DNA of 64,000 nucleotides from Escherichia coli. Lineage in GTDB: Bacteria > Pseudomonadota > Gammaproteobacteria > Enterobacterales > Enterobacteriaceae. Made by a program: the position numbers. Below, one piece after another: positions 24,001 to 27,000 of this stretch; within the stretch, counting starts at the first letter, position 1, and each line of letters starts with the position of its first letter. The stretch lies in assembly GCF_001677475.2 (NCBI RefSeq), contig NZ_CP015229.1. One strand, written 5' to 3'.

Positions 24001-27000
24001 ACTGAATGGCAAAGGCACCAGTACGCGCCCCACGCTGACGGTTTCTAACCTGTACGGTATGGTCACCGGGATGGCGGAAGATCTGCAGAGTCTGGTCGGC
24101 GGAACGGTGGTCCGGCGTAAGGTTTACGCCCGTTTTCTGGATGCGGTGAACTTCGTCAACGGAAACAGTGACGCCGATCCGGAGCAGGAGGTGATCAGCC
24201 GCTGGCGCATTGAGCAGTGCAGCGAACTGAGCGCGGTGAGTGCCTCTTTTGTACTGTCCACGCCGACGGAAACGGACGGCGCTGTTTTTCCGGGACGTAT
24301 CATGCTGGCCAACACCTGCACCTGGACCTATCGCGGCGATGAGTGCGGTTATCACGGTCCGGCGGTCGCGGATGAATATGACCAGCCAACGTCCGATATC
24401 ACGAAGGATAAATGCAGCAAATGCCTGAGCGGTTGTAAGTTCCGCAATAACGTCGGCAACTTTGGCGGCTTCCTTTCCATTAACAAACTTTCGCAGTAAA
24501 TCCCATGACACAGACAGAATCAGCGATTCTGGCGCACGCCCGGCGGTGTGCGCCTGCGGAATCGTGCGGCTTCGTGGTGAGAACGCCGGAGGAAGACAGG
24601 TATCTTCCCTGCGTGAATATCTCCGGTGAGCCGGAGGCGTATTTCCGGATGTCGCCGGAGGACTGGCTGCGGGCAGAGATGCAGGGTGAGATTATGGCGC
24701 TGGTCCACAGCCACCCCGGTGGCCTGCCCTGGCTGAGCGAGGCTGACAGACGGCTGCAGGTGCAGAGTGATTTGCCGTGGTGGCTGGTCTGCCGGGGGGC
24801 GATTCACAAGTTCCGCTGTGTGCCGCATCTTACAGGGCGGCTCTTTGAGCACGGGGTGACGGACTGTTACACGCTGTTCCGGGATGCTTATCATCTGGCG
24901 GGGATAGAGATGCCGGATTTTCATCGCGGGGATGACTGGTGGCGTAACGGTCAGAATCTCTATCTGGATAATCTGGAGGCCACAGGGCTGTATCAGGTGC
25001 CGTTGTCAGCGGCGCAGCCGGGCGATGTGCTGCTGTGCTGTTTTGGTTCATCTGTGCCGAATCATGCCGCCATTTACTGTGGTGACGGCGAGCTGCTGCA
25101 CCATATTCCTGAACAACTGAGCAAACGAGAGAGGTATACCGACAAATGGCAGCGACGCACACACTCCCTCTGGCGTCACCGGGCATGGCACGCATCTGCC
25201 TTTACGGGGATTTGCAACGATTTGGCCGCCGCATCGACCTTCGTGTGAAAACGGGAGCCGAAGCCATCCGGGCGCTGGCCACGCAGCTACCGTCGTTTCG
25301 CCAGAAACTGAATGAGGGCTGGTATCAGGTGCGCATTGCCGGGCGTGATGCAGGCGAAAACGAATTATCTGCCCGTCTTAATGAGCCGCTGGCAAATGGT
25401 GCCGTGATCCACATCGTACCGCGTCTGGCGGGTGCCAAAAGTGGCGGTGTTTTTCAGGCAGTGCTGGGTGCGGCGCTGATTGCTACGGCAATCTGGATGC
25501 CGGGAATCAGTATCGCTTTCAGTGACATTCTCTTTTCTATGGGGGCAGCGATGACGCTTGGTGGTGTTGCACAGATGCTGGCCCCTAAACCCAAAACTCC
25601 ACGTACACAGACAACGGATAACGGCAAACAGAACACCTATTTCTCCTCGCTGGATAACATGGTTGCCCAGGGCAATGTCCTGCCTGTTCTGTACGGTGAA
25701 ATGCGCGTGGGGTCACGTGTGGCATCTCAGGAGATCAGCACGGCAGATGAAGGGGATGGTGGTCAGGTTGTGGTAATTGGGCGGTAATATTATTTACTCA
25801 TGTTTTAACTGATTTAATATTTATATCGAATACTGATAATTATTCTGTTGGTTAGCTATATGAACAAAACGATTTTATTCTGCACGATTATTGCCTTAAC
25901 AGGATGTAAATCTTTGGATTACGTAAAATCCGGAAAACCTGTAATGGAAGGTAATTCATTAAAAAATATTGATGAATTGTCAGGCTGCATATCCAGACAA
26001 TGGGCTGGTAATGGAACACCTATAACATCCCTTCCTATTGAGAATGGGGTAAGCCTTTTAGTTCCACAGGCTATGGGTGGGTACGATGTTGTGCTTGATA
26101 TCAAAAAAGCAGGAAATGGCAGTAGTTTTACTCTTTATGAACGCGTACCAGCATTAACGCCAAAAATTTTTGCTGATAGTGTTAATGCATGTAAATAATA
26201 GTTAATCCTGCCGTAACTCATGAGCCGCCTTTTGGGCGGCTTTGTCGTTTATGGAGTGTGAGGAATGGGTAAAGGAAGCAGTAAGGGGCATACCCCGCGC
26301 GAAGCGAAGGATAACCTGAAGTCCACGCAGTTGCTGAGTGTGATCGATGCCATCAGCGAAGGGCCGGTTGAAGGTCCGGTGGATGGATTAAAAAGCGTGC
26401 TGCTGAACAGTACGCCGGTGCTGGACAGTGAGGGGAATACCAATATCTCCGGTGTCACGGTGGTGTTCCGGGCAGGTGAGCAGGAGCAGACACCGCCGGA
26501 GGGATTTGAATCCTCCGGCTCCGAGACGGTGCTGGGTACGGAAGTGAAGTACGACACGCCGATTACCCGGACCATCACGTCTGCAAACATCGACCGTCTG
26601 CGCTTTACCTTCGGTGTGCAGGCACTGGTGGAAACCACCTCAAAGGGGGACCGGAATCCGTCGGAAGTCCGCCTGCTGGTTCAGATACAACGTAACGGTG
26701 GCTGGGTGACGGAAAAAGACATCACCATTAAGGGAAAAACCACCTCACAGTATCTGGCCTCGGTGGTGGTGGGTAACCTGCCGCCGCGCCCGTTCAGTAT
26801 CCGGATGCGCAGGATGACGCCGGACAGCACTACAGACCAGCTGCAGAACAAAACGCTCTGGTCGTCATACACCGAAATCATCGATGTGAAACAGGGCTAC
26901 CCGAACACGGCACTGGTCGGTGTACAGGTGGACTCGGAGCAGTTCGGCAGCCAGCAGGTGAGTCGTAATTATCATCTTCGCGGGCGCATTCTGCAGGTGC

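What the first reader, a model, noticed from the sequence alone, without database searches (positions are those of the whole stretch)
25788..26250. Lipoprotein moron inserted between tail genes I and J
A ~460-bp AT-rich insertion carries a 112-aa lipoprotein (lipobox LTGC) with its own promoter-like upstream region and terminator, in a position that is empty in lambda. Small phage lipoproteins in tail regions (Cor, Llp) mediate superinfection exclusion by blocking the phage's own receptor.
Basis: partly seen in the sequence, partly recalled or inferred. Interest (0 to 1): 0.5.

Follow-up and report, generated by a model that had tools for sequence, protein, structure and literature searches.

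The report
Uncharacterised prophage lipoprotein moron in tail operon
A small, horizontally acquired gene for an outer-membrane lipoprotein of unknown function sits between two tail genes of a lambda-like E. coli prophage; it is a real, widespread phage "add-on" gene that probably alters the cell envelope, perhaps to keep other phages out, but it is unrelated to the known exclusion lipoproteins and does not track the phage's own receptor-binding tip.

Summary
Window 25788-26264 is an AT-rich insert (GC 0.30-0.43, flanks about 0.58) in what is a 60-bp I-J spacer in lambda. It carries a 112-aa ORF (25860-26198) with a canonical lipoprotein signal peptide (LTG|C16, Lys at +2).

The protein matches phrog_914 (unknown function) over its full length. 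Its family has at least 236 clusters of 110-120-aa proteobacterial lipoproteins with three near-invariant Cys. Every context that could be identified, except one chromosomal copy, was a temperate phage or prophage, usually inside a lambda-like tail module (K|I, I|J, chaperone|tape measure). Each of the 10 distinct cassettes inspected ends in a terminator-type hairpin.

The cassette is in 336 of 5426 complete E. coli genomes, about 4% of the I-J junctions detected.

The moron reading is supported. The Cor/Llp-type own-receptor-blocker reading is not:
- There is no sequence, profile or fold similarity to Cor, Llp, Rtp45 or Bor.
- The gene does not sit next to a receptor-binding gene.
- The same 99-100% identical protein travels with at least five different J C-termini.
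- Phage Fraca carries both this gene and a genuine cor.

The promoter is only weakly supported. The 3' arm of the hairpin is shared with lambda's empty spacer.

Best guess (about 0.4): a lysogen-expressed envelope lipoprotein that excludes phages through a fixed host target. This is ordinary as a kind, but the family is uncharacterised.

The parts
25146..25787 (+). Tail tip assembly gene I (left flank of the insert; overlaps K, 24505-25248)
   Evidence: phrog_32 tail assembly protein, E 1.8e-83. RefSeq calls it 'tail assembly protein'.
25788..25859 (+). AT-rich 72-bp leader with weak sigma-70-like hexamer pairs (e.g. TTTACT 25793-25798, 16 bp, TAATAT 25815-25820; GATAAT 25835-25840). Weak Shine-Dalgarno sequence.
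   Evidence: GC about 0.30. Seven pairs with at least 8 of 12 matches, against a mean of 1.8 in shuffles. No + strand site at the tool's 9-of-12 threshold. The TTTACT/TAATAT and GATAAT elements are invariant in 26 E. coli copies.
25860..26198 (+). Prolipoprotein gene, 112 aa. Signal peptide is aa 1-15. The lipobox L-T-G-C is aa 13-16 (25896-25907), with Cys16 lipid-modified. The mature protein is about 96 aa, an alpha/beta domain with conserved Cys43 and Cys111.
   Evidence: ORF. phrog_914, E 7e-33, full length. Family alignment invariant at C16, C43 and C111. AF2 model pLDDT 85.6. 148 of 155 family representatives have the lipobox Cys plus a second Cys at about +27, and none has Asp at +2.
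26222..26252 (+). Intrinsic-terminator-like hairpin (GAGCCGCCT-ttt-GGGCGGCTT) with an interrupted T tract, just upstream of the J ribosome-binding site
   Evidence: The same type of element follows every family member inspected. Its 3' arm and the downstream sequence are homologous to lambda's I-J spacer hairpin.
26265..29519 (+). Tail tip gene J (right flank). Lambda-like to aa 830, then a divergent and shorter C-terminus.
   Evidence: J C-termini differ among carriers of the same lipoprotein.

Best explanation
This is a moron cassette: an AT-rich leader, a lipoprotein gene and a terminator-type hairpin, acquired horizontally into the 60-bp I-J spacer of a lambda-like tail operon in an E. coli prophage.

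Shown by the sequence:
- The product has a Sec/Lsp-type signal peptide with lipobox LTG|C.
- Lys follows the lipid-modified Cys.
- The folded domain starts about 3 residues after that Cys.

Inferred:
- A compact alpha/beta domain of about 95 aa, probably stapled by a Cys43-Cys111 disulfide, sits tight against that membrane.
- It is transcribed in the lysogen from a weak local promoter and stopped by the hairpin. Q-antiterminated late transcription would read through the hairpin.

Most likely function (inference from precedent and context, not shown): it changes the envelope so that incoming phages cannot complete entry. It would do this by binding the periplasmic face of a fixed host outer-membrane protein. 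That target is not tuned to whichever receptor the carrier's own J tip recognises.
For: Moron anatomy:
- Extra DNA relative to lambda and mEp332.
- GC 0.37 versus 0.57-0.60 in the flanks.
- A terminator-type hairpin follows the gene in all 10 distinct cassettes inspected, at four different insertion sites.

Lipoprotein:
- Lipobox and family-wide conservation; no Asp at +2.

Real, selected gene:
- phrog_914, 236 clusters, 10 synonymous to 4 non-synonymous changes.
- 336 of 5426 E. coli genomes.

Phage linkage, temperate phages or prophages, mostly inside lambda-like tail modules:
- K|lipo|I.
- lipo|I.
- I|lipo|J.
- chaperone|lipo|tape measure.
- Also next to an integrase and in an immunity-type region.

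Precedent:
- The small phage lipoproteins encoded in siphophage structural-gene regions that I found characterised are exclusion factors: Cor, Llp, Rtp45, Lpp021/Lpp010 (PMC12685063, PMC11893012, PMC11990801).
- The HK97 gp15 moron inside the tail operon is also an exclusion protein (PMC3594210).

Fixed rather than matched target:
- One allele occurs with at least five J C-termini.
- 7 genomes share the J tip versus 336 that share the moron.
- It coexists with cor in Fraca.
Against: - No experiment on any family member was found in four literature searches. All database names are 'hypothetical', 'lipoprotein' or 'phage protein'.
- No homology or fold match to any proven exclusion lipoprotein.
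- The gene is not adjacent to a receptor-binding gene.
- The promoter is weak or uncertain. In some relatives the gap to the upstream gene is only 31-39 bp, so expression could be late and operonic.
- The nearest fold, Flpp3, is a virulence-associated lipoprotein and not a phage-defence protein.
- One family member is in an ordinary chromosomal neighbourhood.
- Two E. coli copies are frameshifted.
Confidence: 0.4

Rival explanations
1. Host-fitness or virulence conversion factor, of the Bor/Iss or Flpp3 kind. The lysogen-expressed outer-membrane lipoprotein would raise serum, stress or host-colonisation fitness and have no role against phages.
For: - Bor is a moron-encoded outer-membrane lipoprotein of similar size that confers serum resistance (PMC3594210).
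- The protein is independent of the J receptor-binding type.
- A chromosomal family member exists outside any phage.
- The family is common in human and animal E. coli isolates.
Against: - No Pfam Lambda_Bor or DUF3568 match.
- The structural match is to a very common alpha/beta sandwich. DUF302, KA1 and BamC-N score almost the same.
- The family occurs in soil and water proteobacteria and in metagenomes, where serum resistance is irrelevant.
- Its persistent placement inside tail modules is not explained.
Confidence: 0.25
2. One reading: a Cor/Llp-type blocker of the prophage's own receptor. It would protect the lysogen from related phages and progeny from debris.
For: - Outer-membrane lipoprotein in a siphophage tail region, with a short tether that suits binding the periplasmic face of a barrel protein.
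- Precedents: Cor, Llp, Rtp45, Lpp021/Lpp010 (PMC12685063, PMC11893012).
Against: - The same 99-100% identical protein is found with at least five J C-terminal types. These are 52-68% identical or unalignable over the last 200 aa.
- The window's J tip is in 7 genomes; the moron is in 336.
- The gene is at least 2.5 kb from the variable part of J, whereas known exclusion genes abut the receptor-binding gene (PMC11990801).
- No homology to Cor, Llp or Rtp45.
- Fraca carries cor as well.
Confidence: 0.12
3. Receptor-independent exclusion aimed at the conserved ejection machinery of lambda-like tails. Candidate parts are the J hub, the ejected gpI or tape-measure proteins, or the K NlpC/P60 domain. 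It would act at the inner face of the outer membrane, in the manner of HK97 gp15 or T4 Spackle.
For: - The gene is linked to the conserved tail-tip genes (K, I, the J N-terminus, tape measure) across relatives only 25-50% identical. It lies directly beside I in most contexts.
- In L042-L046 it occupies the same slot as the HK97 gp15 moron (PMC3594210).
- It is independent of the J receptor-binding type.
Against: - The positions may only reflect permissive intergenic sites in long operons.
- The cassette also occurs next to an integrase, in an immunity region and in a chromosome.
- No interaction evidence exists. gp15 is an inner-membrane protein of a different type.
Confidence: 0.12
4. A phage life-cycle accessory made late from the tail operon, for example an aid to tail-tip assembly, release or lysis, with no lysogenic conversion role.
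For: - Gaps to neighbouring tail genes are very short in some relatives (31-56 bp).
- The promoter here is weak.
Against: - It is absent from lambda and from about 96% of E. coli I-J junctions with otherwise near-identical tail genes, so it is dispensable.
- It is exported and lipid-anchored, away from cytoplasmic tail assembly.
- A terminator directly after the gene only makes sense for transcription that is not antiterminated.
- Frameshifted copies exist in otherwise intact modules.
Confidence: 0.05

Closest known systems
Cor (phage exclusion lipoprotein of phi80, N15, HK022 and T1-like phages)
   Same: Small outer-membrane lipoprotein of temperate siphophages, encoded in the tail region. 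It has an internal Cys and a penultimate C-terminal Cys (Fraca Cor ends ...TTCK; this protein ends ...NACK).
   Different: - Cor is 77 aa; this protein is 112 aa.
- No NCBIfam Cor hit.
- hhalign on mature parts gives probability 1.8%. The 89% from the first comparison came from the signal peptide.
- Cor lies downstream of J beside the receptor-binding genes, whereas this gene lies upstream of J.
- Both occur together in Fraca.
Llp (T5) and Rtp45 (Rtp): exclusion lipoproteins that bind FhuA and LptD from the periplasmic side
   Same: Periplasm-facing outer-membrane lipoproteins with an internal disulfide and a short tether (PMC12685063).
   Different: - Both are much smaller and encoded next to the receptor-binding protein gene.
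- Only the signal peptide of Llp (8a60_B) aligns, E 0.69.
Lpp021 / Lpp010 of mEpimmI phages
   Same: Lipoproteins in the structural gene cluster of temperate coliphages with lambda-like K, I and J genes. They are shown to exclude phages (PMC11893012).
   Different: - Lpp021 is a 72-aa Cys-rich protein with no similarity. The family HMM finds nothing in mEp021.
- Their types track the receptor used (OmpA, LamB) and they lie downstream of J.
HK97 gp15 moron (YebO-like superinfection exclusion protein)
   Same: The archetypal moron inside a lambdoid tail operon, expressed from the prophage, blocking DNA entry without blocking the receptor (PMC3594210). Relatives of this cassette (L042-L046) sit in the same chaperone|tape-measure slot.
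   Different: gp15 is a small inner-membrane protein, not a lipoprotein, and has no sequence relation.
Bor / Iss
   Same: Moron-encoded outer-membrane lipoprotein of lambdoid phages, about 100 aa (PMC3594210).
   Different: No Pfam Lambda_Bor match. Bor lies next to the lysis genes. Its known role is serum resistance.
Flpp3 (DUF3568) of Francisella tularensis
   Different: 6-12% identity and no Pfam DUF3568 hit. The fold class is very common (DUF302, KA1 and BamC-N score nearly as well). Flpp3 is not phage-borne.

Membership tests
Moron (Juhala/Hendrix sense) | Extra DNA between genes that are adjacent in related phages | tested here: met
   Lambda and mEp332 have a 60-71-bp I-J spacer. Most E. 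coli junctions are empty.
Moron (Juhala/Hendrix sense) | Base composition unlike the surrounding genes | tested here: met
   GC 0.37 versus 0.57/0.60. The same holds for relatives in other phages.
Moron (Juhala/Hendrix sense) | Own terminator | tested here: met
   Hairpin at 26222-26242. Every relative inspected ends in a GC hairpin plus T run. Caveat: the 3' arm is shared with lambda's empty spacer.
Moron (Juhala/Hendrix sense) | Own promoter, and expression from the repressed prophage | tested here: inconclusive
   Only 8-9 of 12 hexamer matches and no + strand site at the scan's threshold. Expression cannot be tested with these tools.
Bacterial lipoprotein (Lgt/Lsp/Lnt pathway) | Signal peptide with lipobox [LVI][ASTVI][GAS]C | tested here: met
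   MNK + hydrophobic core + L-T-G-C16. 148 of 155 family representatives have it.
Bacterial lipoprotein (Lgt/Lsp/Lnt pathway) | Outer-membrane sorting (no Asp at +2) | tested here: met
   Lys at +2. No Asp at +2 in 148 relatives. Actual localisation is not testable here.
phrog_914 | Full-length profile match | tested here: met
   E 7.3e-33, residues 1-112 on profile positions 1-118 of 118. Function unknown.
Cor | Sequence or profile homology to Cor | tested here: not met
   No NCBIfam Cor hit. hhalign on mature parts gives probability 1.8%.
Cor | Encoded next to the receptor-binding genes downstream of J, and matched to the FhuA-binding tip | tested here: not met
   The gene lies upstream of J and is linked to at least five J tips.
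Llp / Rtp45 | Sequence or fold similarity to the solved structures (8A60, 9RPS) | tested here: not met
   Signal peptide only, for 8a60_B. Neither is listed among the best 50-60 matches of either fold search.
Bor / Iss | Pfam Lambda_Bor domain | tested here: not met
   No Pfam hit for the protein or for 64 relatives.
Superinfection exclusion proteins (functional class) | Expression reduces adsorption or entry of phages | not testable with these tools
   Needs plating, adsorption and DNA-entry assays.
DUF3568 / Flpp3 | Pfam DUF3568 match or a clearly specific fold match | tested here: inconclusive

The most novel reading that the evidence does not exclude
phrog_914 may be a large, undescribed family of phage outer-membrane lipoproteins that moves as a gene-plus-terminator cassette between intergenic sites of lambda-like tail operons. 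Under this reading it confers receptor-independent superinfection exclusion. It would intercept the conserved tail-tip ejection machinery (J hub, gpI, tape measure or K) at the periplasmic face of the outer membrane. That would make it a lipoprotein counterpart of HK97 gp15 and T4 Spackle.
Probability: 0.12. Interest if true: 0.65.

Novelty: new member of a known kind. Interest (0 to 1): 0.35.

Why it matters
The gene is found in about 6% of complete E. coli genomes and in many other proteobacteria, always annotated as hypothetical. If it excludes phages it would add a fifth, structurally distinct family of exclusion lipoproteins. Unlike Cor, Llp and Rtp45, it is not coupled to the carrier's receptor-binding tip. 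That matters for predicting phage host range and phage-therapy failure from genomes. If it is instead a fitness factor of the Bor type, it is a common and unrecognised conversion gene in clinical and food-borne E. coli. In either case it is a cheap target to test: one 339-bp gene.

Tried and rejected
- Pfam, NCBIfam, PADLOC and a PDB sequence search gave no family beyond signal-peptide matches.
- Remote homology to Cor looked possible in a first hhalign (probability 89%). The match covered only the signal peptide and about 15 residues. After trimming signal peptides and using 58 Cor and 62 family sequences it vanished (probability 1.8%).
- I considered arguing that presence in a virulent phage would exclude a lysogen-fitness role. 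Fraca turned out to be temperate, with integrase, excisionase, repressor and Q, so that argument was dropped.
- The search for related loci with the diverse alignment A3 failed because it had no conserved stretch. The closer alignment A2 worked.
- Rfam found nothing meaningful in 25400-26600. The antisense ORFs (43 and 61 aa) have no support.
- I checked whether the I-J spacer is a hot spot with varied cargo. In a spread of 60 junctions only this insert and empty spacers appeared. Inserts longer than about 700 bp would have been missed.
- Co-folding the lipoprotein with K, I or outer-membrane proteins was not attempted. The structure tool returns no coordinates or inter-chain confidence.
- Four literature searches found no study of this family.
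Full report
WHAT IS THERE. The window matches a lambdoid prophage of E. coli strain 08-00022 (NZ_CP013662.1), integrated next to potBA; the insert and its flanks match at 100% identity. Between the tail genes I (25146-25787) and J (26265-29519) lies a 477-bp spacer. In lambda the equivalent spacer is 60 bp, and in mEp332 it is 71 bp. The spacer holds one convincing ORF, 25860-26198 (+), 112 aa. GC drops to 0.30-0.43 there, against 0.52-0.62 around it. The gene is 0.37 GC and the flanks are 0.57 and 0.60. The N-terminus MNKTILFCTIIALTG|C is a textbook lipoprotein signal peptide, with lipobox L-T-G-C and Lys at +2.

EXPRESSION SIGNALS. The 72-bp leader has several weak sigma-70-like hexamer pairs, 8-9 of 12 matches. 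Examples are TTTACT-16-TAATAT (25793-25820) and GATAAT (25835-25840). There are seven such pairs against a mean of 1.8 in shuffles. The standard scan at its threshold listed none on the + strand, and the Shine-Dalgarno sequence is poor. So 'promoter-like' is fair, but a promoter is not shown.

Downstream, a 9-bp GC hairpin with an interrupted T tract (26222-26252) lies just before the J ribosome-binding site. Lambda and mEp332 have a related hairpin (aaaCCGCCtgcgGGCGGttttgtc) in their empty spacer. Homology to the window starts inside the hairpin, at its 3' arm. Every relative of the gene that I inspected is also followed by the same kind of hairpin plus T run, immediately before the next tail gene, and these relatives sit at four different insertion sites. 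The terminator is therefore a regular part of the cassette. Lambda's hairpin may be a scar or a recombination junction. A terminator inside a Q-antiterminated late operon makes sense only for transcription that starts locally, which is indirect support for expression in the lysogen.

THE PROTEIN AND ITS FAMILY.
- It matches phrog_914 (unknown function) over its full length, E 7e-33.
- Pfam, NCBIfam, PADLOC and PDB sequence searches give nothing.
- A word-indexed search found only enterobacterial relatives.
- A profile search of 1.84 billion representatives found 236 clusters at E<=1e-3, nearly all 110-120 aa.
- Of 155 full-length representatives, 148 have a lipobox Cys followed by a second Cys at about +27. 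Of those, 145 have a Cys near the C-terminus, and none has Asp at +2.
- In a 64-sequence alignment the only invariant residues are the three Cys.
- AFDB shows the same fold in 'lipoproteins' of Serratia, Pseudomonas, Bordetella, Pandoraea, sphingomonads and Glaesserella ('phage-related lipoprotein') and in Sodalis ('Gp19 phage protein'). All are uncharacterised.
- Source names are 'hypothetical', 'lipoprotein' or 'phage protein'.
- The AF2 model is confident (pLDDT 85.6). It has a four- to five-stranded sheet packed by two long helices that carry Cys43 and Cys111. The fold starts about 3 residues after the lipid Cys.
- Among E. coli alleles there are 10 synonymous and 4 conservative non-synonymous differences. 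The gene is under purifying selection.

WHERE THE FAMILY LIVES.
- In E. coli the cassette is in 336 of 5426 complete genomes (348 places). In all 26 IMG/VR copies with an intact reading frame it is followed by the same 66-bp spacer before J. That is about 4% of roughly 8,700 detected I-J junctions. Apart from 4 insert-bearing junctions and 2 partial matches, a spread sample of 60 showed spans of about 430-460 bp, as expected for empty spacers, and one of 484 bp.
- No sequenced phage isolate in the 50,697-record collection has it at high identity.
- Two temperate HK97-like phages, Fraca and LMessi, have 29-31% relatives.
- More distant members lie at K|lipo|I (Fraca, L007, L040, L047, L048, L050), lipo|I (L005, L053), and tail chaperone|lipo|tape measure (L042-L046, the slot of the HK97 gp15 moron).
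- Others lie beside an integrase (L006), in an immunity-type region (L051) and, once, in an ordinary chromosomal neighbourhood in Shimwellia (L049).
- Overall this is a mobile gene-plus-terminator cassette of temperate phages with a strong preference for lambda-like tail modules.

TEST OF THE OWN-RECEPTOR-BLOCKER IDEA. Known exclusion lipoproteins are encoded beside the receptor-binding gene and match its specificity. These are Cor, Llp, Rtp45 and Lpp021/Lpp010 (PMC11990801, PMC12685063, PMC11893012).
- This gene abuts the conserved 5' end of J. J is 92% lambda-like to aa 830 and then diverges.
- Among IMG/VR copies encoding a 99-100% identical lipoprotein, complete J proteins fall into five C-terminal clusters. 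These are 52-68% identical or unalignable over the last 200 aa.
- The window's own J tip plus its two downstream ORFs occurs in only 7 genomes, against 336 with the moron.
- Fraca has both this gene and a bona fide cor downstream of J.
- A first profile comparison with Cor scored 89%, but only over the signal peptide. With signal peptides removed it fell to 1.8%.
- Lpp021 is an unrelated 72-aa protein, and mEp021 has no family member.

The protein is therefore not a member of any known exclusion family and is not tuned to its carrier's receptor.

MECHANISM.
- Shown: a conserved, selected, exported lipoprotein gene in a moron-type cassette.
- Inferred from the +2 rule and the short tether: the domain sits at the inner leaflet of the outer membrane, close to the membrane.
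- Inferred from precedent and context: a lysogen-expressed envelope function.
- I rate exclusion of incoming phages through a fixed host outer-membrane target as most likely, at about 0.4.
- Next is a Bor/Flpp3-like host-fitness role, at about 0.25.
- Then strict own-receptor blocking, at about 0.12.
- Then interception of the conserved tail-tip ejection machinery in the manner of HK97 gp15 (PMC3594210), at about 0.12.
- Last is a late life-cycle accessory, at about 0.05.

None of these can be settled computationally here. The plating, adsorption and entry assays listed under next steps would settle them.

NOVELTY AND VERDICT. As a kind, a lipoprotein moron in a lambdoid tail operon, this is familiar. 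As a family it is uncharacterised, absent from Pfam, widespread and easy to test. Four searches of the available literature turned up no study of it. Interest is moderate to low, 0.35.

Noticed in passing
window 26222-26264; L003 (lambda J02459 15445-15504); L004 (mEp332): Lambda and mEp332 carry a terminator-like hairpin (aaaCCGCCtgcgGGCGGttttgtc) in their empty I-J spacer. It is homologous, from its 3' arm onward, to the hairpin that ends the lipoprotein cassette. Cassettes at other sites in other phages end in near-identical hairpins. It may be the scar of a lost cassette or a recombination junction.
   Followed up: partly
window 26265-30688: J is lambda-like (92%) to aa about 830. It then gains a coiled-coil-like stretch and stops at 1084 aa without a lambda-type C-terminal receptor-binding domain. 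Two ORFs follow: 123 aa (29529-29900) and about 264 aa (29894-30688, phrog_4062). RefSeq flags this J as a pseudogene, yet the identical arrangement is intact in IMG/VR loci L013 and L023 and in 7 E. coli genomes. It may be a split tip in which the receptor-binding part is a separate protein.
   Followed up: partly
L049 7001-7339 (Shimwellia blattae CP001560): A 38%-identical family member lies in a non-phage chromosomal neighbourhood, between a YidB-like gene and ecotin and near copCD/yebY. It could be a host ancestor or a domesticated copy of the phage lipoprotein.
   Followed up: no
L042-L046, about 9960-10342: In Enterobacter/Citrobacter-type prophages a 52%-identical copy sits between the tail assembly chaperone genes and the tape measure gene. 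This is the position of the HK97 gp15 exclusion moron.
   Followed up: partly
L037 9918-10252; L038 8172-8509: Two E. coli prophage copies of the lipoprotein gene are frameshifted, while the flanking I and J remain intact over the sequence available.
   Followed up: no
L002 6001-6336 and 11579-11812 (phage Fraca LR597645): One temperate HK97-like phage carries both a member of this family (upstream of I) and a genuine cor gene (downstream of J). Cor and this family both end in a penultimate Cys (…TTCK / …NACK) but are otherwise unrelated.
   Followed up: yes
window 24505-25787: K (24505-25248) and I (25146-25787) overlap by about 100 nt in different frames, as in lambda. RefSeq starts I later, at a position equivalent to about 25212.
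   Followed up: no
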